Below, one piece after another: positions 33,765 through 51,811 of a stretch of 64,000 nucleotides of DNA. Under the pieces are notes generated by a model that was not told where the DNA came from, did no database searches, and was given only the letters and a program-made list of their open reading frames with translations. A program made the translations under genes and the position numbers. The stretch is from Naegleria gruberi (lineage: Eukaryota). Every line of letters begins with the position of its first letter. The stretch's first letter is position 1. The stretch lies in assembly GCA_000004985.1 (NCBI GenBank), contig GG738905.1. One strand, given 5' to 3'.

Positions 33765-33855
33765 TTGCCGACACCAGGGATCGAACCAGGGACCTTAAGA
33801 TCTTCAAGATTCAATGGCTTATTAGACCAACGCTCTCCCAACTGAGCTATGTCGG
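33765..33855 (-). tRNA. tRNA-Ile(AAU)-like gene carrying an 18-nt insertion in the 3' strand of the anticodon stem (non-canonical intron, or a disrupted gene)
   Basis: The reverse complement is gccgaca-ta-gctc-agttggga-gagc-g-ttggt-cTAATAa-gcca[ttgaatcttgaagatctt]a-aggtc-cctgg-ttcgatc-cctgg-tgtcggc-a. Removing the bracketed 18 nt restores the anticodon stem ttggt/gccaa and a 73-nt cloverleaf matching eukaryotic tRNA-Ile-AAU. The insertion is not at the canonical 37/38 site. Confidence 0.6.
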
Positions 33856-34110
33856 CTTCTTGAAATTTAAGATATTTAATAAGCAATATACTAAGCATCG
33901 TTATATGTCTTTGCTTACTAATTCAACATTTCTCTTTCATAGTCTTCCTTCATTCTTTTAAAGTAGTGTCATTGAGTTCTAAGCTGTCACGTTCCTCACT
34001 TATGTAACACTATGAAATGATTGTAACCTTGGAACTTTAAGTTCCCAATGCAATTTGAAATTAAAATTTACTAATTGTCAGCACTAAACGTTCTCAACCA
34101 ATCAAAAAAA

Positions 34111-35280: not shown

Positions 35281-35701
35281 CAAAAAAGCATTGGGAAATA
35301 AATTCAAACCAAATTTTGATAATAATAAAATATCAAAGTGACAATTAGAAATTAATGTCAAAACACCTCACTAATTTTGGACGAATTCAAACACATCTAT
35401 ACAAATATATTTTCAAATTATATTATAATTTGATCAAACACATTGGTAATTGTGCATTTCAATAATTTCTCAATAACACTATCAATTTAATATGTGTGGA
35501 ATAGTTTCAAGTGACTTGTCAATAGACCGAAGAGGAATGGAGGAACTGTATTTTCACATCACAAATAATGCAAAGAAAACAACCCAACTTTAAAAAAGGT
35601 AGTATGTTCTCCCTTTGTTTCCAAATAATAATAATGATTCAATCGGAATCTTAACAACAAGTATTAACGAGGAACCTCTTTTATTACAACAAGAAAAAAA
35701 A

Positions 35702-37369: not shown

Positions 37370-38551
37370 ATGGGAACCAAACCATCACGTACCTCCAAAT
37401 CAGACGCCACTTCGGATGTCATGTTAATACAAAACAATAATAATATTCAACAGGCTTCAACTCGAAAAAGAGAAAAAGTTCTAATACTTGGTCCCTCCGA
37501 TTCTGGTAAATCCACACTATTCCACATGTTGAAACTAATAACTTCGGGACATGACGTTGATGCAAAATTTGAAAATAATTTGCGAATTGTCAGCTCGTGG
37601 GTTATTGAGAGAATTTGGGAAGCGATGGGAGAGCAAGAGCGTAATCACTTGAAAGATCTCATCCCTGAACTGAGATCAGTATTCGAAAATACAGAAGATG
37701 CTAATTTAGCTACTGAATTGCAGAACAGAGATGATTGTTGCGAAATACTGGTCACTCTTTGGAAAATTCCATTCTTTAGAGAGTTCTACGAATCGGTGTG
37801 GAGCAGAGATGGAATTTCAATGTTCGAAAATGTCAAGGAATTAGTCTCAAGAATTGAACACAAAAAAAGCTTTTCTCCATATTCATTGGTACATTGCAGA
37901 ACAACAGGAATATTATCATACGAAACGATGGGAAAAAACACTGAAATTGAAGTGATCGATGTTGGAGGAAGGAGAAATGAAAGAAAGAAATGGATTCATT
38001 GCTTTGAGGATACACATACATTAATTTACATGGTTTCTCTTTCAGAATTTAATCAAACTTTAATAGAAGATAACAGTACTCGTAGAATGGATGAATCTCT
38101 ATCCCTAATTAGTGAAGTAATGAATTCCAGATGGTTCGTTGGTCTGCGTAAAATAATTCTCTTTGTAAAACCGGATATTCTATGCAAAAAATTGGAAAAT
38201 GGAGTGAAATATGGTGGAGAACTCAATCCTAATATTTTACCAGAGCTAGACAGAATTGCTGACCATTATCTTAAACTAGTTATCAACTCGATCATTACAG
38301 AATTCTTCAAGAAAATCGATAGAACTACGATTGATTCCTATCATATTGTTAATAATACCTCAGAAGATGATATCAAATCCGTTTGTGAAATGATCTTTGG
38401 AGAGAGATCAGCTCAAAAAACAACCTTCATCTCACCCTGTATCATACCTGCCAACAATCGAATGATACTATGCCTCTTCAACATTTGTCTGCAAGAAAAA
38501 TTGACAGATATTCAAATCATTACTTCCAACGAAGAAGAAAATTACTACTAA
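37370..38551 (+). CDS. Divergent heterotrimeric G-protein alpha-subunit-like protein
   Basis: MGTKPS N-terminus (an MG myristoylation-type start). P-loop KVLILGPSDSGKSTLFHMLKLI, switch I HCRTTGI, G3 DVGGRRNERKKWIHCFE and the helical-domain layout are all G-alpha-like. The catalytic Gln of DVGGQ is replaced by Arg, the switch-I Arg by His, NKxD by VKPD, and TCAT by VNNTS. Confidence 0.7.
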   Translation: MGTKPSRTSKSDATSDVMLIQNNNNIQQASTRKREKVLILGPSDSGKSTLFHMLKLITSGHDVDAKFENNLRIVSSWVIERIWEAMGEQERNHLKDLIPELRSVFENTEDANLATELQNRDDCCEILVTLWKIPFFREFYESVWSRDGISMFENVKELVSRIEHKKSFSPYSLVHCRTTGILSYETMGKNTEIEVIDVGGRRNERKKWIHCFEDTHTLIYMVSLSEFNQTLIEDNSTRRMDESLSLISEVMNSRWFVGLRKIILFVKPDILCKKLENGVKYGGELNPNILPELDRIADHYLKLVINSIITEFFKKIDRTTIDSYHIVNNTSEDDIKSVCEMIFGERSAQKTTFISPCIIPANNRMILCLFNICLQEKLTDIQIITSNEEENYY

Positions 38552-38704
38552 TTCACATTGATCAGCATTTAATTCATACCATCATTGTACCAATAATATT
38601 CAAAACTATTCACTTCACAATAATTATTCCACACTTTCATCATTTCAACAAGTTTTTTATTTTCAATTCAACAAAAAAATTTACATCACCAAAAACACAA
38701 TAAA

Positions 38705-39472
38705 ATGGTCAATAACAAGAAGAATAACAAGAAAACATCAGCCATTGCTTCCGAAGTTGCTGGATCATCATCAAAACCATCATCAAAGAAGACCACCACA
38801 ACAGCTCCTCCAGCAGCTCCTGTTGCTACAGAAGTAGTAGTTGAAAAAGTAGAAAAAGCCACACCAACAACAACAACAATAGAAAAGAAGCAAACAAAGA
38901 AGGCAACAACAACTAAAACAACACAAGAAAAGAAGAATCCTGATGTTGCTGCTGATAAGAAGAGAAAATTGGATCAAGTTGTTGAAGAACCAGCTAAAAA
39001 GAAGGAAGAAACAAAGTCTTCTGCAGTAGTTGTTGAAAAATCATCAAAGAAACAAAAGAAAGAAACAAAGCCAGCAGTTGTTGTTGAAGAACCAAAGGAA
39101 GAAGAAGAAACTGAAGTTGTTGTTGAAGATGAAAAGGAAGAAAAGAAAAAGAACAAACGTAAGGAAGCCAAAACTGATATTGAAGTCACACTGAGAAAGG
39201 AAGATATTACAATGAGTGAAGAGGAATTTAAAAAGTGTTTCCATGATGCTGTGAAAATATATAGAGGATCCAAACGATGTGTTATTGTGCATTTGAGAGA
39301 TTCCGCTCAATTGGAAAAGTATTTGAGCAAGGAAGGTGAGGATGGTTCATTAATTCCATTGAATAAGAATTTTGTTGAAGTTGGAGGAAAGATTTTTGAA
39401 GTTAAGAGAGCTAAGGTGAAGGATGTTAAGAGAATTGCTAAAAAGAAGGCTGCTTGGGATAGTTTTAAATAA
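38705..39472 (+). CDS. Lys/Glu/Thr-rich low-complexity protein, possibly nucleolar
   Basis: 255-aa ORF with long charged low-complexity tracts (KKKEETKSS, EEEETEVVVEDEKEEKKKNKRKE) and a small ordered C-terminal region. Confidence 0.4.
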   Translation: MVNNKKNNKKTSAIASEVAGSSSKPSSKKTTTTAPPAAPVATEVVVEKVEKATPTTTTIEKKQTKKATTTKTTQEKKNPDVAADKKRKLDQVVEEPAKKKEETKSSAVVVEKSSKKQKKETKPAVVVEEPKEEEETEVVVEDEKEEKKKNKRKEAKTDIEVTLRKEDITMSEEEFKKCFHDAVKIYRGSKRCVIVHLRDSAQLEKYLSKEGEDGSLIPLNKNFVEVGGKIFEVKRAKVKDVKRIAKKKAAWDSFK

Positions 39473-39652
39473 ACTACTAGGTTATTAACTTGTTGATTTG
39501 AATTATCTCTCTTAGCTCAATCTCATGCTGTACACTTTTGTGGAGCTAACTTGTGGTAGATTGTAACATTTGACAAGTCAAGGAATAATGAACTCTGTCC
39601 AAATATTGTAAAAGAAAAATGGGTTTTTGCCTTTTAAAAACAAGTAAAAAAA

Positions 39653-40735
39653 ATGAAAATACATCTCTTGAGTGATTTGCACATTGAACACTTCCCAGAC
39701 TTGGCCCAATTCCAAGACATGTACAAGGAACGATACGGAAATGAACTTTTGGAAAATAACAATCAAGCAAATGTTCTGGTTCTTGCTGGTGATATCGGAA
39801 ATGTTAAAAAGGTAGGCTATCAGCAATTCCTAGTCAAAGCCTCTGCGCTCTATGAACACGTCATTATTGTGGGAGGAAATCATGAATTTTATGGGAATGA
39901 ATATTTCGAATGTATGGCCAAGATGAAGGAGATTTGTAAGGAGGTTGGTGAGAATGTTCACTTTCTGGATAAATCAAAGGTGGAAATTGTGGATTCTGAG
40001 ACGAAGGAGGTATATGTTTTTGTAGGAGCTATTTTATGGTCGAATATTCCAGAAGAATCTCAACTCTATGTGGAATCTGTAGGTTTTTTCGAATGAAATA
40101 TTTATTTTGGAATGTCATTAATTTGAAATAATTTTTAATAGGCAATGAATGATTATCGATTGATTAAAATTAAGGAAAGTGGAGCCGATTCTGCAACCTT
40201 GTTGAGGACTAAACATACTGTTCAAATGTTCAAGGAAGAATCAGAATATATCAAACAAGAAATTGAAAAGGCAAAAATTAATCAACAAAAGGTAATTGTT
40301 GTTTCACACAATGCACCTTTGAATAGAGGAGTGAGTGCTCCACAATTCGAAACTGTAGATAATGGTTCAACAAGGAGTTTAAATTATGCCTTTGCTACTG
40401 ACCTGAGCTCAATCATGGATGATCACGTAATTGCTTGGCTATTTGGCCATACTCACTATAGCTCTCTTCAAAAGTTCAATAATACCATTGTTGCTAGTAA
40501 TCAATTGGGATATTTGAGAGGATTTTCAAAAGAGGAGAATAGTTACAAAGTAGATTGGATTCTCGATACCAATAACTTGAATCTTGCATCAATCCCAAAG
40601 TTTGTTCCCTATCCACCAAAATCACAAACTCAAACTACCAACGCTTCTGGAGCTTCTTCATCTGAAACCGTAAATAGCAATTCATCATCCAATCCTTCTA
40701 AATTTTCTAATATTTTGAGTTTCTTTAAGAAATAA
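39653..40735 (+). CDS. Calcineurin-like metallophosphoesterase; 2 exons
   Basis: HLLSDLHIE, VLVLAGDIGN, IIVGGNHE and LFGHTHYS give the D-x-H...GD...GNHE...GHTH metallophosphatase motif set. Exon 1 is 39653-40078 (GTAGGT donor), the 63-nt intron ends TTTTAATAG, and exon 2 is 40142-40735. Confidence 0.65.
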
Positions 40736-41439
40736 GAAACATTGTAATATATTGTACAGTTATTATTTAAAAAGTAGTTTCGTGGAATTGTTTTAATTTC
40801 TTATTGAGAGGTCTATAAATCTCTTCAACAACAGAAATTTTTGGAGCAAAGCTTGCTGAGGTTGAGTAAATCTCCCAAAGGAAACCCTTCTTTACCAATA
40901 CTTGTGGAGGAGGAAAGCTCAATGACATTGCTTTCAAAAAGTTGAGAACCATGGTTGGAGTTTTCAAACAGCGTTCCCAAGAAACTTGTTTCGATCATAG
41001 TAGGGAATTTCATTGGGTGAGGAGTTCTTTCCGGTAGTCGGCTCGAAATAAGTGTTCTGCCATTTTTTTAAAAGATTTTGGCGCCAAATTTGTGTTCATT
41101 TGATTAAGGTAAAGTGTAACTGTGTTGTAAAGTTATTCGAAATGTTATTGGAAAGTGAAAAAAGTACCTTATCCTTTTTCACAGTAGTGAATTTAAAATG
41201 CTTTTCACTAACGGCGAAATTGTCCATGATTGCTAACTCTAATCCAAATACAACGATTAAATCATTGTTGTTTAGGCAACTTTCGTTTTATCATGCTCCA
41301 AATAAAATTTTTTCATTTCATTCAGGTTCATCCACAAATTCCTTTCCAAGACCCATTATTTTAAAAATGGACAAGGCATCATATCAATAATTCGTTTAGA
41401 ATAGATGAACACTGAAAATCTAATAACATACAAAAAAAA

Positions 41440-43038
41440 ATGGCCAAATCACCCTATCCACCAATTCCACTCTTTAATCTTACCGAAGCCTTTGTGATAA
41501 ACTCAACAAATCATCTCTATGTTCCATTCGAATCTACCACTTTATCCATTGTAGACACTGTCATCATGTCAATATTCATTTTAGCTCATATCGTTGCCAT
41601 CATTTTGGCGTTTACCTTTCTCAGAGTTGGATACTTGATGAAAAAACAAAAAGAAGAAGTGCAAGTAGTATTGAAGAATGTTCAATCGACAAAGGAACAA
41701 TTTTCACCAAATCGACAATCAACGAAACATGTTTCACATTCGACAGCAAATATTGGAACACCGACTGTGAATCATCAGGAGAGTAGTGATGTTTTGGGAA
41801 ATGGTAGTACTACTACTGTTGAATTATTGGAAGTGAATAATGTTAGTGGTATAAGCCTGTCACCTGCCGTGAATGGTAATCATTTGGATAGTGGAAGTTT
41901 GCAAATTAATAGAAATAATAGAACAATGTCGAATTCTAGTGATGTGCAGAATTCATCAACTTCATTCTCTACTACACCTGGATCTGTTTTGTTGAATGTT
42001 GGTGAAGAAGTTCATAATAAGGATAATGTTTCAGTTTCGTCCAATACAAAAATAAGACATTCCACCAGATTGGCAGTAAGCCAACATGCAAATCATCATC
42101 AAATGGATAGCGATGGAATGTCAAAGAATCAGAGGATTTTATTCATTCTTTTACTCTTCTTACTCTTCTTTCAAATGACAAGTTTACTTTTATTGATTAT
42201 TCACCATGCATTGAATTTCAGTGGACACGCTATGATTGATGATTATATTTTAAAAAGGAATAATGATATTGCTTCGGGAATCATTAGTGAATCATCTCCT
42301 ATTGAGCTGGTTCCTAGTAGGGAGTTTAGAATTGCAGACAGATTTGTTGGAATGTTTCAGGCGATTGTTGGAGCTTCATGTTATTTGATTATCCTGTACA
42401 TTTTATGTTTTATTGAAACAGTTTTGTAAGTCATTTGAATTCTAAAGATTGTTCTAAAATAACACATCCAAAATTAAAGCATCCAGACGGTTCAGAAAAC
42501 TGGAACCATGTCAAAGAAGACTGCAAAGATTATTACCACTATTTCTGTAATTGTTACCATTATTACAACCTCTTTAATCTTTGTGAGTATTGTATCCTCC
42601 TGTGTCATGATTCTCCTCGTAAAATCAGGAGTTATTACGGATGATGAGCTTTCTGCCAGTTTACCAGGAGCTGCCTTATTCATTTTCCAAGTTGTCTTTC
42701 ACAACGTCATTTTCAACGTTGTTGGATTTAAGGTACTGAGAACGATTCGTCAATATTCTTCCAAGCTCAACAGACAATCCAGTGAACGACCATTCTATAG
42801 AGTTATTATTTTACAGATAGGATTGACCATTTTTACAATCATTCACTTGTTGGGAGCTGTTTGCTTGGCTCTGTATCCTTCATGGGAATTTTTCGATGCA
42901 ATTTCATTTGCATTTTCTTCAATCGCAATTCTAGGATATACCACAATAATATTCTTCCTCTATAGACCATTATTTAAGGATGCTAGAATTCAAGCTAGGG
43001 AAATGAAGAAACTCATATCAGAAACTCAACATGACTAA
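41440..43038 (+). CDS. Seven-transmembrane receptor-like protein with a long Ser/Asn-rich first loop; 2 exons
   Basis: ORFs 41440-42429 and 42508-43038 join through a GTAAGT...TTAAAG intron (about 42427-42478), giving in-frame ...ETVFIQTVQKTGTMSKK.... There are seven hydrophobic helices in total. No assignable GPCR family motifs. Confidence 0.4.
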
Positions 43039-43148
43039 TGTCAAGAAGTGTATTCTTGATACTATAATATTAAATCTTTTAATATTCATTTAGGAAATTG
43101 TAAAACTCAACAACGAAATTATTCAAAAAAAAATCAAACACTTGAGAA

Positions 43149-44828
43149 ATGACATCTTTTAATGATGTGGAGGATCAAGTTGTCATTTATTTAGATCATC
43201 AAAAAGATGGGAAAATTATCTACTCGGAAACAAATTCTCTTCTCAAGACGAAACTCTTAGCGGAATTAGTACAAAAACGAAACCATATTCAAGATTTGAA
43301 GGAATGTGTAAATTCTGGAGATAACAGTGTGAGAATGATCCTCCTTTCTCACTTTCCGATAATTGATAATCATGATCAAACCTACTTGTTGAATATTTTG
43401 GAGACTTTTAAGGAAGCATTTAAATTTGTTCCACAATCATTGAAGAATGATCGAAATTTTGTTCTGAAATGTTTGGAGGTGAATGGAGAATTATTTAAAG
43501 AGTATGAAATACTCGCGAATTATGTTTATACAGACGAGAGAACAGGGTTTTCATTTATTCGAAAAGCTTTTCAATTAGAAAGTGTCGTGAAACAGTTGGA
43601 TCCAAAGACAATTCTAAGTTTACCCTATAGTCCTTTACAGTATATCATTTCGAATAGAGAATTTTTTATGAAAGCAGTTTCAATCAATCCAACTATATTT
43701 TCATGTGCCTGTAGAACACTAAAGGCAGATGATGAGCTACTATTTGAAGCAGTGAAATATAATAGACAACATTTGAAATTTGCCTCTCTTAAACAGTTGG
43801 AAAATAGAAATTTAATATTTAGAGCTTGTGAAACCAAGGAAAGTAGTAAAATTGGATATTGGAGTTCAGTTTTGACGATTGCTTTGCCATTAGCCAAGTA
43901 TAATCCAGAATTAGCTTTGGAAATAGTGGAGAAAGACCATGAATCTGTTGCATGTGCAATCAAACATTTCAAAAATCACGAGAAAATAATAATGAAAGTA
44001 ATTGAGATAGCTCCATACTTGATATTCAAAGTTATCAAAAGGCAAGAATGGTTTCCAAATATGAAAGAAATTTGTCTATTAGCCCTAAAGAAAGATCCAT
44101 TGATCTACAAATACCTGGGGAGATTTAGATATGATAGGGACATTTTCAAGTTTGCTAGTGATTGTGGTCATATATCTATATCATACTTATATCTGTCACC
44201 TGAAATGCTAGGTGATAAGGTTTTCGCTGTTGGACTTGTAAGAAGTGTAAGTCCATTGTATTTTGAGAGACTTGATGAGAATCTGAAAAGGGATCGTGAT
44301 GTAATCCTAGCTCTTGCTGCACATTTACAAGTACTACAGCAAGAATTTAAAGAGAAGTATTTACCAAATTTAGAGAATGACAAAGAATTTTTATTAGAAG
44401 CAGTGAGAAGGAAGAGAAACGGCTTCTCTATTCTTTCATTCGCCTCAGATGAGTTGAAACAAGATAGAGAACTAATTCTTTCTGACATTAGAAAATGCAA
44501 CAATTTGAATCTAGTTCCTATCCATCTCAGATCAGATCGAGAAATAGTAGAAACTTTTATTAAGAATGTAAATTTATTTCTTTTTGATCCATCAAGTTTT
44601 CCTGATAGTCTATTGGAGGATAGTGAGTTTGTTTGGAGAATGATAGATTTGCGTCCTAATTTGATAAAAAAGTTTCCAAATCATGAATTTTTCAAAGAAA
44701 AGAAAATAATTCTCAAAATGATTTCTAAAAATATTCTCTGTAATGAAATTATTTCAAATGAACTTAGAGAGGACAGGGATATTAAATTGGCATTGATAAA
44801 AATAGGGAATTATCCATTCAAGGAATGA
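43149..44828 (+). CDS. DUF4116-like helical-repeat protein
   Basis: 559-aa ORF with about 10 degenerate repeats of the same type as the 13278 kinase (NDRNFVLKCLEVNGELFKEY, KADDELLFEAVKYNRQHLKFAS, KRDRDVILALAAHLQVL, KQDRELILSDIRKCNNLNL, REDRDIKLALIKIGNYPF). Confidence 0.5.
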   Translation: MTSFNDVEDQVVIYLDHQKDGKIIYSETNSLLKTKLLAELVQKRNHIQDLKECVNSGDNSVRMILLSHFPIIDNHDQTYLLNILETFKEAFKFVPQSLKNDRNFVLKCLEVNGELFKEYEILANYVYTDERTGFSFIRKAFQLESVVKQLDPKTILSLPYSPLQYIISNREFFMKAVSINPTIFSCACRTLKADDELLFEAVKYNRQHLKFASLKQLENRNLIFRACETKESSKIGYWSSVLTIALPLAKYNPELALEIVEKDHESVACAIKHFKNHEKIIMKVIEIAPYLIFKVIKRQEWFPNMKEICLLALKKDPLIYKYLGRFRYDRDIFKFASDCGHISISYLYLSPEMLGDKVFAVGLVRSVSPLYFERLDENLKRDRDVILALAAHLQVLQQEFKEKYLPNLENDKEFLLEAVRRKRNGFSILSFASDELKQDRELILSDIRKCNNLNLVPIHLRSDREIVETFIKNVNLFLFDPSSFPDSLLEDSEFVWRMIDLRPNLIKKFPNHEFFKEKKIILKMISKNILCNEIISNELREDRDIKLALIKIGNYPFKE

Positions 44829-45029
44829 AAGTAAAAGCTCAAAAACAAATGAAAGTGTGAATTTTTTTAATTGAAAAAAATGAGGTTAAACCTGTGGTTA
44901 TTTTCTCCATCGATATAATATATGAAAAGGAGATATTTGAACCGCTGATAGTTTTACCTGCCTAGTTTGTGTGGTTAAAATTTGAAAGACCAAGGCTTTC
45001 CAAAAGGGTTAAAATTGATATCTTTCTGA

Positions 45030-45100
45030 TGCGTCGACCGGGAATTGAACCCGGGTCACGGCGATGGCAACGCCGTATTCTACCACTAAACCATCGACGC
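45030..45100 (-). tRNA. tRNA-Gly (anticodon GCC)
   Basis: The reverse complement is gcgtcga-tg-gttt-agtggta-gaat-a-cggcg-ttGCCat-cgccg-tgac-ccggg-ttcaatt-cccgg-tcgacgc-a, a 71-nt canonical cloverleaf. Confidence 0.9.
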
Positions 45101-45196
45101 TTCACATTCACTTAATACTGTTCCTTAATTCCTAACTAAGGAATTGTGGGTTAAGCAGTCTCATAAAATGTTTGCGGTTAGGAACTGCCTCAAAAA

Positions 45197-46916
45197 ATGT
45201 CTCCACATCATCTATTAATTCTGCTCTTGCTCATTTTCTTGCTGGTTGGCATTCAAATCCAACACACAAACCAGCAGGAAATTAAATTTATCAGAAAATC
45301 ATCACTGATACATCAGGAAATATCATCAGATCAATGGCAACTATCTATAGATGATGATCAAGCCTATTTAATGGAAGAAACAGATTGGACACTCTCCGAT
45401 CACTATTTTACACATTGTTGGAATACCACTCGATTGATGAGAGATGATTTGTATTATGATAGGATGTTTACGATGGGAGAGGAGATTCCATCTTCATTCG
45501 GATGTACTTCTATTCGATTACCAACTGTTTATGAATATTATCCATATAATAGGAAATCAATTTATAATTCAGAATTGAGAAATATTGGATTGGAGGATGA
45601 GGCATTATGTTCGAGAGTTGCTGATTGGGAAAGAAATTTAAATGTGAGCTGTCAGACATTATTGTGTGAAATGGATGGGAAAAGTGAAGGATATTCAGAT
45701 TTGAATGCAATGATTAGACAAAGAACTGATTCAAAGACTAGAATTGAAGATTGGGTTAATTATTGTCAATATTGTAAAGTGGATAATTTGAGGAAATATA
45801 GGGAAGAAAAGAAATGTAATCCCAAAGATGAAACTGCCAATTTTTTAATTAGAAAGTTTCCAAACTCTGCATTCTTTTGTGGATTTCACCAATTTGGAAT
45901 ACCCTTCATTATTAATACGTCGAGAATTGTTGATTTATCAGTGCCTCTGGAACATACTGATTTTTCATTCATTTGCTATTGTAGAGAGAGTCAGGCCTTT
46001 CACTTTAAATGTCCAGATGTGACAACTGAATTTGAGTTGAAAACTGAATATTTTGCATTTTTACTCACAATATTTAACAGTGTTTCGATAATATCTACGT
46101 TAGTATTACCAAAAGGATTTTCAATGATTAAGGATCGCAAAATTAATTGGAACATGTTGACAGCTATTTTCATGCTAAGTGCACAATGTGTATTTGCAGG
46201 ATTTTACTTGTACAAGATCATTTCTGAGGAGCAATATTCAAAGGGAATTGTTTTTTTTGAGTGTGGATTTGGTTTGGCAAATTTTGCCCTTATTTCATGG
46301 CTAATTGAATTTCACAAATTTATTCATTATGTGAGAACGAAAGTAATCTATAAGAAATCTCTGATAATATTGCGATTGGTGATATTTACAAGTTTATCTC
46401 TCATTATATTGTTACCAACACTTCTCATTGCTAACTTGGTTCAATTTAAAAAGAGAAAGATTACATTTATATTCCTCCAATTTTATTTTGGTTCATTTGA
46501 AATTGTAACATTGATTTCCTTAATAGTGGGATCAATAATTATTTACAGAGCTATGAAGCAAATTTCAGATATCGATATTTGGAAAACAAAAGTAAGTTTC
46601 AACACAAGGATAACTTGTTATATCAACACTATTCCAACAGTTCTTAAAGTTTACATTACTCGCTGGTCTACTTTTATTGCTGATAACAATTTGTAATTTT
46701 GTGGTAGGAAGTTTATATTTCATTCGTAGCGATATTGACTTATTTTGGTGGAATCTCAAATTCTTTGCCAACCAGGGGCTGTTCATTGCACTTACGTGGA
46801 TAGAGTACGATAAACTAGAGTTTAATCAATGTTACAGTTGTCAAAAATTAGTAAAGAAGGAAAAGTCAGATCTGGAAGTTGATTTGAGTTCAGATTACGT
46901 ACAGGTTAAAGAATAG
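45197..46916 (+). CDS. Receptor-like multi-pass membrane protein with a Cys-rich N-terminal ectodomain and a 6-7 TM C-terminal domain; 2 exons
   Basis: Signal peptide MSPHHLLILLLLIFLLVG, then a Cys-rich extracellular region of about 270 aa, then at least six hydrophobic helices. Exon 1 is 45197-46591 (GTAAGT donor), the 49-nt intron ends TTCCAACAG, and exon 2 is 46641-46916, encoding a final helix LLAGLLLLLITICNFVVGSLYF and tail. The frame was resolved by the splice. Confidence 0.45.
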
Positions 46917-47053
46917 AGTTGATTATAAATTTGATAATATATTTATATTTATTACAGATATTGTTCTAATCAACAATGGTATTCTTGACTTGTTGTCAAG
47001 ATTCTAATCATAATGAGCTTATCAATACTCGCCACACTTGGAAATGGATACAA

Positions 47054-48757
47054 TTATTCTTGAACCTCAATTGTGATTGAGTTTGAATCCACAGCAGTTG
47101 GATCAGTGGTTGGCTTCTTTTTGTCTCCTTCTGCCAAGCATGGAACTCCATTTAACTCTTTTATCGATTGCTTGAATTTAGTCCAATTATTTTCGCAATA
47201 CACTAAACAATCCAAAACTCTATCATTGTGGAAAATGTCAATAAAGTGAGAAATCATAAGTTCACAAACAGAACTGAGGGCAGGTAAGTGTTGAGCCAAG
47301 AATTGTTGCTTTGAAACGTTGAGTGAACTTGGTGGATAGGCAAAGACAGGACCAAAAACAATAGCCAAATTGGTTTCCTTCATCATGTTAATGTGACTGA
47401 ATCTGGTAATTCTGTGCAACAAGCAACACATACATTGCAAAAGGAAGTAGTTATGTTCTGGAAGTTTGTGCATAATTTCTCTGAGGTGATCAATCTTTTC
47501 ATTCTTATCTGAAATTTTATCCAATTGAAGTACCGATGAGTAGAGAGCGTGTGGAATTGGTGGTTCTGGCAATTCTCTCAAAAACAGTTTTAATAAACCT
47601 CCAATTGTATGTTCATCTTCTCCTTCAGAAAATTGAATATCTTGATCTGGATTTTGATCGAATTGAATTTCATAAGCTCTCATACGATTCTTGTTACCAG
47701 GAACACGGAATAAACCTTCAGTTGTCAAATTATTTTGATAAAGTCTAGAAATACACTTGTAACAAATATCAGGTAAAACTCTTTCTGGATGTCTAGCATG
47801 TAAATCAACAAGTGGAACACCAAATGTGACTTTTCCTTGAGTTGACAAATCATAACGACATTCAACTCTCATATGAATTTTACCAGATGATTTTTCACCA
47901 ACAACAACTGGACGAAGAGGGAACCAATCTTCCTTATCTGCTCCAGCTCTAGCACTTTCAATTTTAACAACAACTTGTCCCATAATATCATCAGAGTGGA
48001 ATCTATCCTTATCAAACATGATCACATGCAAATCACAAGGTAATCTAGAAATTTCAAATTGGAATTCTTCACGCCATTTTGGCTCCAAAGTATTTTGTTC
48101 AACTTTTGTATGTTCAACTTTGTGTTCCATATTTAAAACAAGATAAGGATCTGCCAATCCTCCCATCAATGCAGTATCATGTTTTTCCAAATCCTTTGCC
48201 TCTCTAATTTTAACATAAACCTTAGCTTTCATTTGGAAAACTGTTGGTGCAGCCACTCTAATATCATCAGGAACCAATTTTCCAACAGTACTATGAGGAG
48301 CATCAGGATTATTACTCGAATCACTACTACTACCCGATTGTTGTTGTTGTTGATCCTCATTCCTAACATTCTTCTTACTAGTTGTTTTTTTCAAAATTGT
48401 CTCTCTAGCTTGTTCCATTGCTTGTTTCAAGGCTCGCAACCACAAATCCTTTTCATCCCAACTCTGGAATACAATCACATAGTGCGAAATATCAGACTCG
48501 AGGGTGATTTGATATTTTTTCTCATCATTCTTCGACTCGTCGATGAACTTGAGCCGAGGCTCTGTGGTGAGAATGTAGGCTTTGGCTTGTGTAGCCTCGA
48601 CGCGGTGCGGATCAAAGAAAAAGATTCCCTGCGTTGTGACAATGACCCAATTGATACGCCATGAAGGACGGAGGAGGTTTCTACCTTGGCTCTTGATGGT
48701 TTTTCTGTAGAGATAGCCTTGACGAACGGGTATGTCAATGTTATATCTTTGTTTCAA
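47054..48757 (-). CDS. PH-C2-RhoGAP domain protein; N-terminal exon probably missing
   Basis: PH-like start QGYLYRKTIKSQG...WRINWVIV. C2 domain VYVKIREAKDLEKHDTALMGGLADPYLVLNMEHK...EPKWREEFQFEI. RhoGAP core GLFRVPGNKNRMRAYEIQF...IGGLLKLFLRELPEPPIP...NLAIVFGPVF with the arginine finger in GLFRVPG. The ORF has no in-frame ATG at its 5' end (the track uses a TTG). Confidence 0.7.
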   Translation of the reverse strand: MKQRYNIDIPVRQGYLYRKTIKSQGRNLLRPSWRINWVIVTTQGIFFFDPHRVEATQAKAYILTTEPRLKFIDESKNDEKKYQITLESDISHYVIVFQSWDEKDLWLRALKQAMEQARETILKKTTSKKNVRNEDQQQQQSGSSSDSSNNPDAPHSTVGKLVPDDIRVAAPTVFQMKAKVYVKIREAKDLEKHDTALMGGLADPYLVLNMEHKVEHTKVEQNTLEPKWREEFQFEISRLPCDLHVIMFDKDRFHSDDIMGQVVVKIESARAGADKEDWFPLRPVVVGEKSSGKIHMRVECRYDLSTQGKVTFGVPLVDLHARHPERVLPDICYKCISRLYQNNLTTEGLFRVPGNKNRMRAYEIQFDQNPDQDIQFSEGEDEHTIGGLLKLFLRELPEPPIPHALYSSVLQLDKISDKNEKIDHLREIMHKLPEHNYFLLQCMCCLLHRITRFSHINMMKETNLAIVFGPVFAYPPSSLNVSKQQFLAQHLPALSSVCELMISHFIDIFHNDRVLDCLVYCENNWTKFKQSIKELNGVPCLAEGDKKKPTTDPTAVDSNSITIEVQE

Positions 48758-49767
48758 GAAGGCAATAAAATTGGTAGTGTTTTGTTGTGTATTTGATGAT
48801 GATGGTGGTAGTGTTTTGTTGTTGTTGTGTATTTGATGAAGTTTTTGGAAGCGGGAGAAAGTTTTTAATTGTTTTTAATTAAATTAAAATAATTCGTGAT
48901 GATGATGTGAAAGATGTTGGAATGATTTATGTTATTTGGGATGTGTTGTGGAATTTTAATGATGATGATGAGTAACGAGGAGAGAAATTAATTTTCGGTT
49001 AATGATGAAATAATTTAGTTTCTCACAAATATTTCGAATATACATACCTCCCAAATTCCTCTAAATCTTTAGAACTGCTAATCATTTGTTTTTTATCAGT
49101 TAGTTTAATAAATAATGTTTCTTTCTACTGTTTCAACGTTAAAAGTGTGTGTAAGTAAAAAAGTGGTATGGGTGCTCCAAACTTTTGGTAGAAGAAACTT
49201 GTCAATTTTTTTTAGGGTGTCAAGTGTCAATCCCTTTAATGTCAAGCAAAGTGTTCATTCTTCATTGATAAGAAGACCTTTCATACAAAACAAATCTCAA
49301 ATATCAAAATATGTAAATGTTCTGTCCCACTATTTCAAACTACAGAATCATGTTGACCTTTTTTACAATTTGATTTTCAACCACTTTCAAAATCAAGGAG
49401 CTATCAACTCCCAATTCCTTCTCAAAGGTTCTATTTTCCTTTCCTAATTACCTTATCTCGACAATCTCTTCCTCATAAAACAAGCAGCTTCTGGCAAGAA
49501 TATCGAGTTTTCTTCCTCATTTCTCAGTTCATCACTTTAACGTGTTGCTGTAATGGGTTGGAAAATTTAATAATAGCACAAAATTGAAAAAAATCGGCAA
49601 AATTCTCTCTACCTCTTTCTTGGAAGCAGATTGAAACTCTTTAGAATTCTCTACTCGAGCAACTTAAAATTGATTGTGTGGTTAATTTTGGTTCATTAGA
49701 ACGTGATTGGAAACAAAAAAAACAAACCTTGTAAATATAAATAACAACAACTAACTAGATTTTGAAA

Positions 49768-50615
49768 ATGGTGTGGGGATTAGGATGGCTTTTGGGAAAT
49801 GGTAAGTTTTCTAATTGTTGTATTGTTCCGATGATGAACGTTAATTGATTTTATATTTGATGATACTATATACAACATTATATAATACTATTTATATTAT
49901 TAAATATTAAATAATTTGCACGTGTAGGAAAGGAAAAGAAGGAAGTGAAGGCAGATACTCACGAACCAGAACACAATAAGAGTATTAATAATATTCATGA
50001 AACTATCGGAACACTGGAAAAGAGAGAAATGGCACTTTTAAAAAAGAGTGAGGAAGAAGAAGCAAAGGCTAGAAAATTCCTCCAAGAAAATAATAGAACG
50101 GCAGCTGCTAATTGTATCAAGAAAAAGAAACAATATCAAACTCAAATTCAACGATTACAAGGACAAAAACAAAATTTAGAAACAACTTTACTGACCCTTG
50201 AAGATTCTGTGACAAATGTAGAGACACTCAAGGCTCAAAAGCAAGCCTCAGATGCAATTAAGAAAGTTTATAATGGTATGAAGACAGAAGATATTGAGGA
50301 TATTATGGATGATATTAGAGATACGTAAGTATAATTTGAATCTTTTTATACGAATTGTTTAATAGTATGGATGATGTGAATCAAATTGGAGATGCTCTAG
50401 CTCAAAATGTAGGTCCTGTATTTGATGAAGGAGAATTATTAGACGAATTGGAACAATTAGAAAGTGATGCTCACGAGGAAGAAATGGCCAAGATTAAATT
50501 ACCAAAAGAAAAGGTTACCAAAGACAAGGATACTACACTGCCTGTTGCATCCAAGAAACAAGTTGATCCTGAAGAGGCTGAACTGGAAAAGGAATTGGAA
50601 GCACTTATGAATTGA
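49768..50615 (+). CDS. Snf7/Vps32/CHMP4 ESCRT-III subunit; 3 exons
   Basis: Exon 1 is 49768-49801 (MVWGLGWLLGN, GTAAGT donor), exon 2 is 49928-50324 (GKEKKEV...KKKQYQTQIQRLQGQKQNLETTLLTLEDS...MDDIRD), and exon 3 is 50366-50615 (TMDDVNQIGDALAQ...EELDELEQL...LEALMN*). Collinear with yeast Snf7, including the acidic C-terminus. Confidence 0.7.
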
Positions 50616-50698
50616 TTGTAAATACTAAATTCTCATTTATCATTATTGAATTCTTATTCATTTCCATTTTACAAAGCAATCAACAATCTTTCAAAAAA

Positions 50699-51811
50699 AT
50701 GGGACAATCACAGGCAAAGTCTCCCACACCCGAAATTCAATGCTACTATCCAAAACAATATTTAGTTGGTGGAGGTCTTTACGTTGGAAAATCTACATTT
50801 TGTCGTGGAGTGCTAAGAATGTTTCCAAACTGGAACAAACCTTTCGAATATTCTGATGAGGATTTTGAGAAGGATCTACAACAGATTTCTTGTTTAATTC
50901 TCATTAGACTTTATTTTATGGTAGATGATGATCATCAATATGAGGAATACGAAACGCTGAGACAAGCTATCGGAAATGAACTCAACCTTTCGCGTCATTT
51001 TGATTATGGCCAGGTTACTCATATCATCAATTCAACACCAAATTGCAAACTAATTTTATTGAAAATGTGGAAAGAATTTGAACTGAGACAATTCTATGAA
51101 TCATATTGGATGGACGAAAGAGATTTTAAATTGGGAGAAAATCTGCATCAATTAATTGAAACTATTGAATGTGGAAGGAAGGATTTTGATCCCAAATCGT
51201 TATTTCCTCCAAAAGCTAGAATCAAACATTGTTTCAATGAAAGATTCGTATTCTTTTATTTCTCAACATATGCCTCAAAGTGGATGTATCTCAATCCAGA
51301 AGCAATTATATGTTTTGTATCTTTGAGTGATTTCAATCAAACATCTTATGATTTCTATCCTCGATTTAATGAATCAAAATCTCAAGTAATGGAAGAATTG
51401 CGTAATAGACGATTTTTGAAATGCAAGAAAATTCTAATATTCACTAAACCAGATGTGCTGATTAGGAAATTGAAAGAAAGAATCAAATATAATAGAGAGA
51501 TAGATCATGAAATTAGATCAGAGCTAAAAGTAATTGATCAAGAAAATGTTAAATTGGTTATCAACTCAATCGTTTGTGAATATTTCAAAACCTTATCAGA
51601 TTATGGGGTAGAAATTGACTCATACCACATTATGAACGTGACATCAGATTCAGAAATAATCGAAGTGTGCAACAGGATGTTTCTAGAGAATTCCAACAAA
51701 TCAACTTACATTTCGCCTTGCTTGTTACCGTTTAAATTTCCACCAGACAGACTTTTCAATTATCTCCAACAGGATTTGTTGACAGATGTGTTAATATCAA
51801 CCTTTCAGTAA
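50699..51811 (+). CDS. Highly degenerate G-alpha-like protein (probable pseudo-GTPase)
   Basis: MGQSQAK start. A P-loop remnant LVGGGLYVGKSTF, a helical-domain-like middle region, and C-terminal LIFTKPDVL...HIMNVTSDSE are collinear with the 37370 paralog. The DVGGQ switch II is lost. Confidence 0.5.
   Translation: MGQSQAKSPTPEIQCYYPKQYLVGGGLYVGKSTFCRGVLRMFPNWNKPFEYSDEDFEKDLQQISCLILIRLYFMVDDDHQYEEYETLRQAIGNELNLSRHFDYGQVTHIINSTPNCKLILLKMWKEFELRQFYESYWMDERDFKLGENLHQLIETIECGRKDFDPKSLFPPKARIKHCFNERFVFFYFSTYASKWMYLNPEAIICFVSLSDFNQTSYDFYPRFNESKSQVMEELRNRRFLKCKKILIFTKPDVLIRKLKERIKYNREIDHEIRSELKVIDQENVKLVINSIVCEYFKTLSDYGVEIDSYHIMNVTSDSEIIEVCNRMFLENSNKSTYISPCLLPFKFPPDRLFNYLQQDLLTDVLISTFQ

What the first reader, a model, noticed from the sequence alone, without database searches (positions are those of the whole stretch)
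37370..51811. Two divergent G-alpha paralogs with crippled catalytic motifs, embedded among three 7TM receptor-like genes
Both G-alpha-like genes (37370-38551 and 50699-51811) keep the overall G-alpha architecture (MG start, P-loop, helical domain, switch I Thr, DVGG...KKWIHCFE). The first has replaced the catalytic Gln of DVGGQ with Arg and the switch-I Arg finger with His, and has eroded the NKxD and TCAT guanine-binding motifs. The second has lost switch II altogether. Such changes are expected to abolish GTP hydrolysis or nucleotide binding, so these are candidate constitutively-on or pseudo-GTPase signalling scaffolds rather than classical G-alpha. They sit within about 20 kb of three predicted 7TM receptor-like genes (32507, 41440, 45197) of no assignable GPCR class. 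Together this looks like a lineage-specific, rapidly evolving receptor/G-protein neighbourhood.
Basis: partly seen in the sequence, partly recalled or inferred. Interest (0 to 1): 0.6.

Follow-up and report, generated by a model that had tools for sequence, protein, structure and literature searches.

The report
Catalytically dead G-alpha-like clade in Naegleria
Two neighbouring Naegleria gruberi genes belong to a conserved amoeboflagellate-specific branch of G-protein alpha subunits that has kept the fold and most nucleotide-binding residues, lost both GTP-hydrolysis residues and gained a new C-terminal tail; the nearby seven-helix membrane genes show no conserved link to them.

Summary
The window is Naegleria gruberi nuclear DNA. 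The sequence observation holds. ORF 37370-38551 (Ga1, NAEGRDRAFT_59438) is a full-length G-alpha with DVGGR instead of DVGGQ, His at the Arg-finger position, VKPD instead of NKxD and VNNT instead of TCAT. ORF 50699-51811 (Ga2) is its 32%-identical paralog. It has lost about 15 residues covering beta3 and switch II, and it is absent from every protein collection searched.

These changes are not local decay. A profile search found at least 15 relatives in N. gruberi, N. lovaniensis, Willaertia magna and metagenomes. They share [TVS]K[PV]D, YH[IV]VNxT, variable residues at both catalytic positions, and a new roughly 45-residue C-terminal module (ISPCL ... L[TS]D[IV]xI). The P-loop GK[ST], the switch-I Ser/Thr and the guanine-specificity Lys/Asp are mostly kept.

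Both genes appear to be under selection. dN/dS is 0.37 for Ga1 against its closest relative, and Ga2 keeps 34 of 43 family-conserved columns. AlphaFold models of both are confident G-alpha folds.

The three membrane genes are real 7TM-like proteins once spliced. They match no GPCR family, and five other loci carrying this G-alpha-like clade have no 7TM neighbour.

Verdict: a new variant of a known kind, most likely GTPase-dead G-alpha-like switches or scaffolds. The receptor/G-protein neighbourhood idea is weakly supported.

The parts
37370..38551 (+). Ga1: G-alpha-like gene, 393 aa, single exon (NAEGRDRAFT_59438 / XP_002671433.1; the annotated model starts 17 codons later, at Met18)
   Evidence: Pfam G-alpha 185 bits. 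Best PDB relative 6ne6. 100% identical to P0001. AF2 model pLDDT 83; Foldseek hits are all G-alpha.
37490..37516 (+). Ga1 P-loop GPSDSGKST (Walker A intact; Glu replaced by Asp)
37892..37909 (+). Ga1 switch I HCRTTG: Mg-binding Thr kept; His at the Arg-finger position, or equivalently a 2-residue deletion
37958..37993 (+). Ga1 switch II DVGGRRNERKKW: catalytic Gln replaced by Arg (codon AGG, 37970-37972)
   Evidence: The same residue is present in the 99%-identical strain copy P0265.
38162..38176 (+). Ga1 G4 motif FVKPD (Asn of NKxD lost; Lys and Asp kept)
38342..38362 (+). Ga1 G5 motif HIVNNTS in place of TCATDT
38426..38548 (+). Ga1 clade-specific C-terminal module (FISPCII ... LTDIQII) following helix alpha5
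   Evidence: Conserved in all 17 clade sequences and absent from canonical G-alpha. The ISPC part has pLDDT about 88; the rest is about 55-65.
50699..51811 (+). Ga2: G-alpha-like paralog, 370 aa, single exon; apparently unannotated
   Evidence: BLASTP to Ga1 E = 2e-40. Pfam 36 bits. Absent from the protein collections. AF2 pLDDT 82; Foldseek hits are all G-alpha. Keeps 34 of 43 family-conserved columns.
50771..50797 (+). Ga2 P-loop GGLYVGKST (GxxxxGKS spacing kept, bulky residues inside)
51215..51283 (+). Ga2 remnant of the switch I / beta2-beta3 / switch II region (ARIKHCF ... FYFSTYASKW): no Thr, no DxxGQ, about 15 residues deleted
   Evidence: pLDDT is 54-68 here.
51440..51454 (+). Ga2 G4 motif FTKPD
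51707..51799 (+). Ga2 C-terminal module (YISPCLL ... LTDVLIS)
32594..33731 (+). 7TM-A: neighbouring orphan 7TM gene, two exons (intron 33106-33155). The assembly gap 33582-33631 lies inside it.
   Evidence: The gap is filled by L005, giving a 411-aa protein with 7 hydrophobic segments.
41440..43038 (+). 7TM-B: paralog of A, two exons (intron 42426-42479, same position and phase as in A). 514 aa, identical to XP_002671436.1. Has a long Ser/Asn-rich loop between TM1 and TM2.
45197..46916 (+). 7TM-C: unrelated membrane gene with a signal peptide, a roughly 260-aa Cys-rich ectodomain and 6-7 TM helices. Inferred intron at 46592-46649.
   Evidence: The annotated model XP_002671438.1 is the unspliced 499-aa ORF.

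Best explanation
Ga1 and Ga2 are two members of an old G-alpha-like clade specific to Naegleria and Willaertia (Heterolobosea).

What the clade keeps: the two-domain G-alpha fold, the N-terminal Met-Gly myristoylation start, the P-loop GK[ST], a Ser/Thr at the Mg site of switch I, the DxxG glycine, and the Lys and Asp of the G4 motif.

What the clade has lost or changed:
- It has given up both residues that catalyse GTP hydrolysis, the switch-I Arg finger and the switch-II Gln.
- It has replaced the G4 Asn and the G5 Cys-Ala.
- It has added a conserved module of about 45 residues after helix alpha5, where canonical G-alpha ends in its receptor-inserting tail.

Inferred mechanism for Ga1. It is anchored to the membrane by myristate and still binds Mg-GTP. 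Base contacts are weakened, so exchange is probably fast. Hydrolysis is negligible and RGS proteins probably cannot accelerate it. Ga1 would then sit permanently in the GTP conformation, or be controlled by abundance and partners rather than by a GTPase timer. Its output would go through the effector face and the new C-terminal module.

Inferred mechanism for Ga2. It has gone further and lost switch I and switch II. It most likely acts as a nucleotide-state-independent scaffold or decoy.

Neighbourhood. The proximity of the two genes reflects ancient local duplication. The adjacent 7TM genes are probably neighbours by descent or chance, not dedicated receptors.

Shown here: the motif states, the clade, the predicted folds and the evidence of selection. 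Inferred: lipidation, nucleotide binding, lack of hydrolysis, and the role of the C-terminal module.
For: Identity and organism:
- 100% match to N. gruberi NAEGRDRAFT_59438, on a 290,827-bp scaffold.
- Full-length Pfam G-alpha match in one ORF.
- Ga1 and Ga2 are paralogs, E = 2e-40.

The clade:
- A profile search returned relatives that cover the whole profile, including the C-terminal extension.
- Named sources include N. gruberi 66226, 73162, 49275 and 50404, N. lovaniensis C9374_003200 and C9374_002998, and Willaertia ABK040_002026.
- The 15 core members form a bipartition against 55 canonical G-alphas in 99 of 100 NJ bootstraps.

Motif table:
- The G4 Asn is absent in 17 of 17 sequences. 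The Asp is invariant, and the Lys is present in all but one.
- The catalytic position holds R, Q, S, K, M, D, T, V and so on, with Gln in only one sequence.
- The Arg finger is present only in Willaertia P0192.
- Ser/Thr is kept at the Mg site in most members.
- ISPCL and L-x-D-[IVL]-x-[IFLM] are conserved in all.

Selection:
- dN/dS = 0.365 (dS 0.33) for Ga1 against P0002. The C-terminal quarter is the most constrained.
- Ga2 keeps 34 of 43 family-conserved columns and 17 of 19 clade-specific columns, although its overall identity to the others is only 25%.
- The chance of an open 370-codon frame at this base composition is about 2e-13.

Fold:
- AF2 gives pLDDT 83 for Ga1 and 82 for Ga2. All top Foldseek PDB hits are G-alpha.

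No conserved 7TM linkage.

Precedent: plant XLG2 is a G-alpha-like protein that works without nucleotide cycling (bioRxiv 10.1101/795088).
Against: - No biochemistry and no expression data could be examined. GTP binding by Ga1 is inferred from retained residues only.
- Loss of the G4 Asn and the G5 Ala could lower affinity so far that the protein is nucleotide-free in vivo, as reported for XLG2.
- dN/dS of 0.37 is relaxed for a G-alpha.
- P0002 is not syntenic with the window, so it may be a paralog or come from another species.
- Ga2 has no close ortholog and no annotation.
- The NJ tree uses saturated distances, so long-branch attraction is possible. Placement of Willaertia P0192 inside the clade has only 30% support.
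- The interleaved order A, Ga1, B, Ga2 on one strand, with similar divergence (29-32%), fits a block duplication of a 7TM plus G-alpha-like pair. That would argue for functional pairing.
Confidence: 0.6

Rival explanations
1. Nucleotide-free decoys. Both proteins, and perhaps the whole clade, bind guanine nucleotides too weakly to be loaded in vivo. They would act like plant XLG2, sequestering partners such as G-beta-gamma or RGS proteins independently of nucleotide.
For: - The G4 Asn and the G5 Cys-Ala are replaced in every member, and some members also lose the P-loop Lys (P0119 GTST, P0194 GAST).
- Ga2 lacks switch I and switch II altogether.
- XLG2 sets the precedent.
Against: - The Asp of the G4 motif is invariant, and its Lys is nearly invariant, across sequences only about 25% identical.
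- The P-loop GK[ST], the switch-I Ser/Thr and the DxxG glycine are widely retained.
- These conservation patterns are hard to explain unless a guanine nucleotide is still bound in most members.
Confidence: 0.25
2. Dedicated receptor-transducer pairs. An ancestral gene pair (a 7TM of the A/B type plus a G-alpha-like gene) was duplicated as a block. 7TM-A would signal through Ga1 and 7TM-B through Ga2, without a GTPase cycle.
For: - The order A (32.6 kb), Ga1 (37.4 kb), B (41.4 kb), Ga2 (50.7 kb) is all on the + strand.
- A and B are paralogs with the same intron position and phase, 29% identical, E = 1e-9.
- Ga1 and Ga2 are 32% identical, a similar depth of divergence.
- A, B and C are the only ORFs in the 64-kb window with four or more hydrophobic segments.
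Against: - No A/B-type protein exists anywhere else in the collections searched, yet N. gruberi has at least six clade members on several scaffolds.
- Five other clade loci (L002, L003, L004, L006, L007) have no 7TM neighbour.
- The genes lying between the pairs are unrelated.
- Ga1 is closer to NAEGRDRAFT_66226 on another scaffold (49%) than to Ga2.
- The canonical receptor-inserting C-terminus is buried under a new module.
- A, B and C match no GPCR family.
- Gene order in eukaryotes rarely encodes function (general knowledge).
Confidence: 0.15
3. Decaying pseudogenes. One or both ORFs, Ga2 especially, are non-functional remnants of canonical G-alpha genes.
For: - Ga2 has lost switch II, scores below the Pfam cut-off, and is not annotated or present in any protein collection searched.
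- Constraint on Ga1 is relaxed, dN/dS 0.37.
Against: - Both reading frames are intact. The probability for Ga2's frame by chance is about 2e-13.
- Ga2 selectively retains 34 of 43 family-conserved and 17 of 19 clade-specific residues.
- The MG start, the TKPD motif and the C-terminal motifs are intact.
- The AF2 folds are confident.
- For Ga1, dN/dS is well below 1: 62 synonymous differences over 231 sites against 99 non-synonymous over 881 sites.
- The degenerate catalytic sites are a clade-wide, long-maintained state.
Confidence: 0.07
4. Gene-model artefact. Missed introns or sequencing errors create the apparent loss of Gln, Arg and NKxD.
For: Naegleria genes do contain short introns; A, B and C each have one. 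The window also contains an assembly gap.
Against: - The whole Pfam G-alpha profile aligns colinearly within one ORF.
- The same residues occur in an independently assembled 99%-identical copy, P0265.
- The same motif states recur in at least 15 relatives from three species.
- The assembly gap lies 3.7 kb away, inside gene A.
Confidence: 0.02

Closest known systems
Canonical heterolobosean G-alpha subunits (for example N. fowleri Galpha7, PDB 6ne6; N. gruberi NAEGRDRAFT_44850)
   Same: Same Pfam family and the same two-domain fold. Both have the MG start, the P-loop and the ERKKW part of switch II, and both are about 30-35% identical to Ga1.
   Different: Canonical members have GAGESGKST, CRxKTTG, DVGGQ, NKxD and TCATD, and they end shortly after alpha5. 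Ga1 and Ga2 lack the Arg finger, the Gln, the G4 Asn and the G5 Cys-Ala, and they carry a conserved C-terminal module of about 45 residues. Bosch et al. 2022 (PMC9283941) list 13 N. fowleri G-alphas. They call the switch-2 Trp universally conserved and do not discuss degenerate members.
Plant extra-large G proteins (XLG2), a 'decoy' G-alpha
   Same: A G-alpha-homologous domain that lacks residues for nucleotide binding and hydrolysis, yet is retained and functional. It is proposed to act independently of nucleotide cycling (bioRxiv 10.1101/795088).
   Different: In XLGs the G-alpha homology is confined to the C-terminal half of the protein. Ga1 and Ga2 are G-alpha-sized, start with MG and instead carry a C-terminal module. 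The two groups are independent origins in unrelated eukaryotic supergroups. Ga1 keeps more of the nucleotide-binding set than XLG2 is reported to keep.
GTPase-deficient oncogenic G-alpha-s (gsp) mutants at Arg201 and Gln227 (recalled from the literature, not tested here)
   Same: The substitutions fall at the same two catalytic positions. In Ga1 the Arg finger is His, or is displaced, and the Gln is Arg. In G-alpha-s such changes block hydrolysis and lock the protein in the active state.
   Different: The gsp changes are somatic point mutations in an otherwise canonical protein that is coupled to receptors and G-beta-gamma. Here the state is germline, clade-wide and accompanied by G4, G5 and C-terminal changes.
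PseudoGTPases and constitutively GTP-bound small GTPases such as Rnd proteins and RhoH (general knowledge)
   Same: A GTPase fold is retained, catalytic residues are replaced, and regulation is by expression or partners instead of a GTPase cycle.
   Different: Those are Ras-superfamily small GTPases without a helical domain. No heterotrimeric-type G-alpha clade of this kind turned up in the literature searches run here.
Naegleria 7TM-RGS proteins and cAMP-receptor-like GPCR candidates (PMC9283941)
   Same: They are multi-pass membrane proteins with seven predicted helices, encoded in the same genus.
   Different: 7TM-A, B and C have no RGS domain, no Dicty_CAR match and no match to any other GPCR Pfam family, even at E up to 10. 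They have no sequence match to solved receptors.

Membership tests
G-alpha (Pfam PF00503) | Profile match above the curated gathering score | tested here: met
   Ga1 scores 185.2 bits against a cut-off of 48.8. Ga2 alone scores 36.3 bits, below the cut-off. It is tied to the family through Ga1 (E = 2e-40) and the clade profile.
G-alpha (Pfam PF00503) | Ras-like domain with an inserted all-helical domain | tested here: met
   AF2 models have pLDDT 83 and 82. All top-50 Foldseek PDB hits are G-alpha chains, with target-normalised TM-score 0.68-0.79 for Ga1 and mostly 0.57-0.69 for Ga2. These are predicted structures, not solved ones.
G-alpha (Pfam PF00503) | G1 P-loop GxxxxGK[ST] | tested here: met
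   GPSDSGKST in Ga1 and GGLYVGKST in Ga2.
G-alpha (Pfam PF00503) | G2 / switch I: Arg finger three residues before the Mg-binding Thr (RxxT) | tested here: not met
   Ga1 keeps the Thr but has His at the Arg position, or a 2-residue deletion. Ga2 has neither residue.
G-alpha (Pfam PF00503) | G3 / switch II: DxxGQ with the catalytic Gln | tested here: not met
   Ga1 has DVGGR. In Ga2 the motif is deleted.
G-alpha (Pfam PF00503) | G4 NKxD and G5 TCAT guanine-binding motifs | tested here: not met
   G4 is VKPD / TKPD, with Asn lost and Lys and Asp kept. G5 is VNNT / MNVT.
G-alpha (Pfam PF00503) | GTP binding, GTP hydrolysis, G-beta-gamma binding and receptor coupling | not testable with these tools
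   These need biochemistry. The predicted N-terminus is disordered, but canonical Naegleria G-alphas also have short, low-complexity N-termini, so this does not discriminate.
Heterolobosean G-alpha-like clade defined here | [TVS]K[PV]D, YH[IV]VNxT, ISPCL and a C-terminal L-x-D-[IV]-x-I module | tested here: met
   Both Ga1 and Ga2 carry all four features. The clade is supported by 99 of 100 NJ bootstraps.
PseudoGTPase (GTPase fold without catalytic competence) | Loss of catalytic residues, shown at sequence level | tested here: met
   Both catalytic residues are absent in both proteins. Actual loss of activity was not measured.
Plant XLG family | G-alpha homology confined to the C-terminal half of a much longer protein | tested here: not met
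   Ga1 and Ga2 start with MG only 19 to 35 residues before beta1.
GPCR (any class), for 7TM-A, B and C | Seven transmembrane helices | tested here: inconclusive
   Kyte-Doolittle hydropathy gives 7 segments for A, 7 for B, and 6 strong plus 1 weak for C after splicing.
GPCR (any class), for 7TM-A, B and C | Sequence similarity to a described GPCR family or to a 7TM-RGS protein | tested here: not met
   No relevant Pfam hit even at E up to 10. No PDB hit. No homologs beyond self.

The most novel reading that the evidence does not exclude
Heterolobosea maintain a whole clade of lipid-anchored G-alpha-like proteins that signal without a GTPase timer. They would be permanently GTP-loaded or nucleotide-independent, and would act through a newly evolved C-terminal interaction module. 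In N. gruberi, one ancestral pair of an orphan 7TM receptor and such a G-alpha-like protein would have been duplicated as a block, giving dedicated receptor-transducer pairs (A-Ga1 and B-Ga2) that bypass the canonical heterotrimer cycle.
Probability: 0.12. Interest if true: 0.7.

Novelty: new variant of a known kind. Interest (0 to 1): 0.45.

Why it matters
G-alpha proteins are the textbook timed switch, and their two catalytic residues are among the most conserved in signalling. The same positions are mutated in the gsp oncogene (recalled from the literature). A naturally occurring, selectively maintained clade that varies both residues freely would be a second, independent case of G-alpha domains repurposed away from GTP cycling, after plant XLGs. 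This clade preserves the guanine-specificity Lys/Asp and the Mg site and adds a conserved C-terminal module.

The clade offers a set of natural variants for asking which G-alpha functions need hydrolysis. The genus includes the lethal pathogen N. fowleri, where G-protein signalling has been proposed as a drug target (PMC9283941).

In practical terms the work also flags an unannotated gene (Ga2) and three probably faulty gene models: the Ga1 N-terminus, a missing intron in 7TM-C, and the 5' end of N. lovaniensis C9374_002998.

Tried and rejected
- Homolog search with Ga2 alone returned nothing, not even itself.
- Exact-sequence look-ups of N. gruberi gene models returned nothing. The neighbourhoods of the other four N. 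gruberi paralogs could therefore not be inspected.
- The profile of 7TM-A plus B found only the two genes themselves in 5.8 billion proteins. It found nothing in JGI metagenome contigs.
- Pfam at E up to 10 and PDB sequence searches gave no family for A, B or C.
No fold-level classification of the 7TM genes was possible.
- The idea that the LRR gene directly upstream of Ga1 is a conserved partner was tested. An LRR gene also sits upstream of the Willaertia copies, but the LRR proteins show only generic repeat similarity. I left it as an observation.
- I first considered the missing N-terminal helix as evidence against G-beta-gamma binding. I dropped this because canonical Naegleria G-alphas also have short, low-complexity N-termini.
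- A first NJ run was invalid because of NaN distances and was repeated. An earlier Biopython run timed out.
- Anantharaman et al. 2011 (Gene 475:63), the paper most likely to have noted inactive G-alpha versions, is not in the library. Prior description there cannot be excluded.

Full report
**Origin of the window.** The window is AT-rich (GC about 0.30-0.36) and gene-dense, with long ORFs and short GT-AG introns. ORF 37370-38551 is 100% identical to a 'predicted protein [Naegleria gruberi]' on a 290,827-bp scaffold. This protein is NAEGRDRAFT_59438 / XP_002671433.1 / D2VWV2. The window is therefore N. gruberi nuclear DNA.

**Observation, Ga1.**
- The 393-aa ORF matches Pfam G-alpha at 185 bits over profile positions 8-329 of 333 in one frame.
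- Its best solved relative is N. fowleri Galpha7, 6ne6, at E = 1.7e-29.
- Alignment with canonical Naegleria, Willaertia and Anaeramoeba G-alphas gives these motif states: P-loop GPSDSGKST; switch I VHCRTTGI against CRxKTTGV; switch II DVGGRRNERKKW against DVGGQRNERKKW; G4 FVKPD against LNKxD; G5 HIVNNTS against ITCATDT.
- Arg-to-His is correct in the ungapped alignment that HMMER also produces. MAFFT prefers a 2-residue deletion (HCR--TTG). The canonical N. gruberi protein P0016 reads HCRIKTTG, which makes the deletion reading plausible. In both readings no Arg lies three residues before the Mg-binding Thr.
- NKxD is only partly eroded: Lys and Asp are kept.
- The annotated model starts at Met18. 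The full ORF starts MGTKPSR, a Met-Gly-x-x-x-Ser myristoylation-type start. That start is shared by the 99%-identical ENA copy P0265 and by P0002.

**Observation, Ga2.**
- The 370-aa ORF from the only in-frame ATG (MGQSQAKS) scores 36 bits on Pfam G-alpha, below the cut-off, and only over its C-terminal half. It has no PDB sequence hit.
- BLASTP against Ga1 gives 32% identity over 341 columns, E = 2e-40. The alignment shows a gap of about 15 residues that removes beta3 and DxxGQ.
- Ga2 keeps a Walker-A-compatible GGLYVGKST, TKPD, HIMNVTS and the C-terminal motifs.
- It returned no hit, not even itself, in the 5.8-billion-protein search. It was not represented in the 1.84-billion-representative search. 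Its exact sequence is absent from the collection, although the neighbouring N. gruberi models are present. It appears to be unannotated.

**These genes belong to a clade.**
- A profile of Ga1, P0002 and Ga2 searched against 1.84 billion representatives returned, ahead of thousands of canonical G-alphas, a set of proteins matching the whole profile including the C-terminal extension.
- Named members are N. gruberi NAEGRDRAFT_66226, 73162, 49275 and 50404, N. lovaniensis C9374_003200 and C9374_002998, and Willaertia magna ABK040_002026. The rest come from metagenome or SRA assemblies.
- The 21-sequence alignment and motif table show the following:
  - The G4 Asn is replaced by Thr, Val or Ser in 17 of 17 sequences. 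The Asp is invariant, and the Lys is present in all but one.
  - G5 reads YH[IV]VNxT instead of TCATDT.
  - The catalytic Gln position holds R, Q, S, K, S, M, D, T, K, T, M, S, V and D, with Gln only in P0002.
  - The Arg-finger column holds Arg only in Willaertia P0192.
  - The Mg-site residue is Ser or Thr in almost all members.
  - All members carry an insert of about 10 residues after the G4 helix, plus a C-terminal module: [FY]IS[PN]C[LI], then a variable stretch, then L-x-D-[IVL]-x-[IFLM] close to the stop.
- In a neighbour-joining analysis (346 columns, 71 sequences), the 15 core members separate from 55 canonical G-alphas in 99 of 100 bootstraps. Adding P0192 drops support to 30 of 100.
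- Mean pairwise distance within the clade is about twice that among canonical G-alphas (1.96 against 1.02). The distances are saturated, so the shared indels and the C-terminal module are the stronger argument for common descent.

**Are they functional genes?**
- Ga1 against its 74-78%-identical relative P0002 (locus L001) gives dS 0.33, dN 0.12 and dN/dS 0.365. The last quarter, which includes the new module, is the most constrained.
- L001 is not syntenic with the window. It carries a tRNA-Asn, LRR2-like fragments and a CoA-transferase. P0002 may therefore be a recent paralog or come from another Naegleria in the same sample. Either way the comparison shows purifying selection.
- A 99%-identical copy, P0265, also has DVGGRR.
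- Ga2 matches 34 of the 43 columns that are at least 70% conserved among the other 14 members. It matches 17 of the 19 that are clade-specific. Its overall identity to those members is only 25%.
- An open 370-codon frame has a chance probability of about 2e-13 at this base composition.
- AlphaFold2 models built on the clade alignment are confident:
  - Ga1 has pLDDT 83 and pTM 0.79. Residues 1-29 and the extreme C-terminus are poorly ordered. The ISPC segment has pLDDT about 88, and a helix at 361-374 is about 60.
  - Ga2 has pLDDT 82 and pTM 0.82. Only the switch I / beta2-beta3 / switch II remnant (residues about 171-200) falls to 54-68.
- All top Foldseek PDB matches for both models are G-alpha chains.

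**Mechanistic reading (inference).**
- For Ga1, the phosphate- and Mg-binding set is intact: P-loop Lys/Ser, switch-I Thr and the DVGG glycine. The guanine-specificity Asp is also intact. Both hydrolysis residues are gone.
- From established G-protein biochemistry, recalled and not tested here:
  - Replacing the Arg finger or the Gln abolishes hydrolysis and RGS action (the gsp Arg201 and Gln227 mutations, and Gi Q204L).
  - Perturbing the G4 Asn or the G5 Ala accelerates nucleotide release (Ras N116 mutants, Gs A366S, Gi1 A326S).
- Together this predicts a fast-exchanging, non-hydrolysing protein that would be GTP-loaded in cells. If affinity has fallen too far, it would instead be a nucleotide-free decoy, as described for Arabidopsis XLG2 (bioRxiv 10.1101/795088).
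- Invariance of the G4 Asp, and near-invariance of the G4 Lys, across 25%-identical sequences favours continued nucleotide binding in most members.
- Ga2 lacks the Thr and DxxG and has bulky residues in the P-loop. It cannot sense the gamma-phosphate, so it is most simply a static scaffold or decoy.
- The conserved C-terminal module replaces the free alpha5 tail that canonical G-alphas insert into receptors. Coupling to 7TM receptors in the canonical manner is therefore unlikely.

**The 7TM genes.**
- Each has one short GTAAGT...AG intron: A at 33106-33155 (phase 2), B at 42426-42479 (phase 2) and C at 46592-46649 (phase 0).
- A and B are paralogs, 29% identical over 162 residues with E = 1e-9. 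The intron is at the same position, and the junction sequences are near-identical: F-LQTVEKAGAMGRKTS against F-IQTVQKTGTMSKKTA.
- My spliced B is exactly XP_002671436.1.
- The assembly gap 33582-33631 lies inside A. A 96-99%-identical ENA contig (L005) fills it and supplies TM7.
- Hydropathy gives 7 segments for A, 7 for B, and for C a signal peptide, a Cys-rich ectodomain of about 260 aa, and 6 strong plus 1 weak segment.
- C is annotated unspliced (499 aa). The inferred intron would add two helices.
- None of the three matches a Pfam family, including any GPCR family or RGS, even at E up to 10. None matches a solved structure by sequence.
- The A+B profile finds nothing but itself.

**Is the neighbourhood meaningful?**
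- The other genes between 31 and 53 kb are unrelated: an F-box LRR protein, an LRR protein, a Lys-rich protein, a metallophosphoesterase, a DUF4116 protein, a PH-C2-RhoGAP protein on the minus strand, Snf7 and Tmemb_14.
- In favour of a link: A, Ga1, B and Ga2 are interleaved on one strand with similar paralog divergence, as a block duplication of a 7TM plus G-alpha-like pair would produce.
- Against a link:
  - tblastn and hydropathy scans of five other clade loci found no A/B/C homolog and no 7TM-like neighbour. The loci were N. lovaniensis L002 and L006, Willaertia L003, and metagenomic L004 and L007. L003 has only a 15-segment ORF 6.5 kb away, and L006 has a small three-segment membrane ORF.
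  - The A/B family has only these two members, whereas N. gruberi has at least six clade G-alpha-like genes.
  - Ga1 is closer to NAEGRDRAFT_66226 on another scaffold (49%) than to Ga2.
- Tandem clustering of the G-alpha-like genes themselves does recur. Willaertia L003 holds three copies in 21 kb.
- I rate dedicated receptor-transducer pairing at about 0.15.

**Literature.**
- Bosch et al. 2022 (PMC9283941) catalogue 13 N. fowleri G-alphas and state that the switch-2 Trp is universally conserved. They do not treat degenerate members.
- de Mendoza et al. 2014 (PMC3971589) note a lineage-specific G-alpha diversification in N. gruberi.
- Full-text searches for Naegleria with pseudoGTPase, GTPase-deficient or catalytic-glutamine terms found nothing on this clade.
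- Anantharaman et al. 2011 could not be read.

**Verdict.** The pseudo-GTPase interpretation is supported at sequence and fold level and extends to a conserved clade. The receptor-neighbourhood interpretation is weak. This is a new variant of a known kind and of moderate interest.

Noticed in passing
window 50699-51811: The Ga2 ORF is absent from every protein collection searched, including by exact look-up, although the flanking N. gruberi gene models are present. It looks like an unannotated gene. It starts only 84 bp after the stop of the upstream Snf7 gene.
   Followed up: yes
window 37370-37420: The NCBI model of Ga1 (XP_002671433.1, 376 aa) starts at Met18 and drops the MGTKPS myristoylation-type start. 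That start is kept in P0265 and P0002.
   Followed up: yes
window 46592-46649: The annotated 7TM-C model (XP_002671438.1, 499 aa) reads through what looks like a 58-nt GTAAGT...AG intron. Splicing continues the frame to 46916 and adds two hydrophobic helices (553 aa).
   Followed up: partly
window 33582-33631; L005 3845-4043: A 50-N assembly gap lies inside gene 7TM-A. ENA metagenome contig L005 (sample ERZ929261) is 96-99% identical to window 29719-35102 and supplies the missing TM7 and C-terminus.
   Followed up: yes
window 35615-37321; L003 8062-9873 and about 16000-18000; L001 1244-1370: An F-box-like LRR gene sits directly upstream of a G-alpha-like gene on the same strand in N. gruberi (48-bp spacer) and in Willaertia (128-bp spacer). 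Willaertia has a second, inverted LRR plus G-alpha-like copy. L001 carries LRR2-like fragments next to P0002. The LRR proteins show only generic similarity, and LRR genes are very abundant in these genomes.
   Followed up: partly
L003 1-540, 10001-11179, about 16000-17300 (minus strand): Willaertia magna has three clade-type G-alpha-like genes within 21 kb (TKVD, YH[IV]VNLTD, a C-terminal LxDLxI motif). One has His at the catalytic Gln position, and the third is interrupted by a frame change or an intron.
   Followed up: partly
L006 9779-9961: The N. lovaniensis model C9374_002998 (P0168, 301 aa) seems 5'-truncated. An upstream exon encodes MGQRKSK...GSRRDGKST, which is the MG start and the P-loop.
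   Followed up: partly
L001 1-59 against window 16413-16471: The contig carrying P0002 begins with a copy of tRNA-Asn 96.6% identical to the window's tRNA-Asn (16388-16462). P0002 therefore lies in a different genomic context from Ga1, either as a recent dispersed duplicate or in another Naegleria in the same sample.
   Followed up: partly
window 6303-6375, 9457-9528, 16388-16462, 33766-33856, 45030-45100: Five tRNA genes (Lys, Glu, Asn, Ile, Gly) are scattered between the protein genes. The tRNA-Ile call is 91 nt long, which suggests an intron.
   Followed up: no
window 416-1672, 13263-16280, 28565-30985: Other notable genes in the window: a terpene-synthase-family ORF, a 1005-aa DUF4116-repeat protein kinase, and an 806-aa protein with a bactofilin domain.
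   Followed up: no
window 41650-42130: 7TM-B carries a Ser/Asn/Thr-rich low-complexity insert of about 175 residues between TM1 and TM2. Its paralog A lacks this insert.
   Followed up: no
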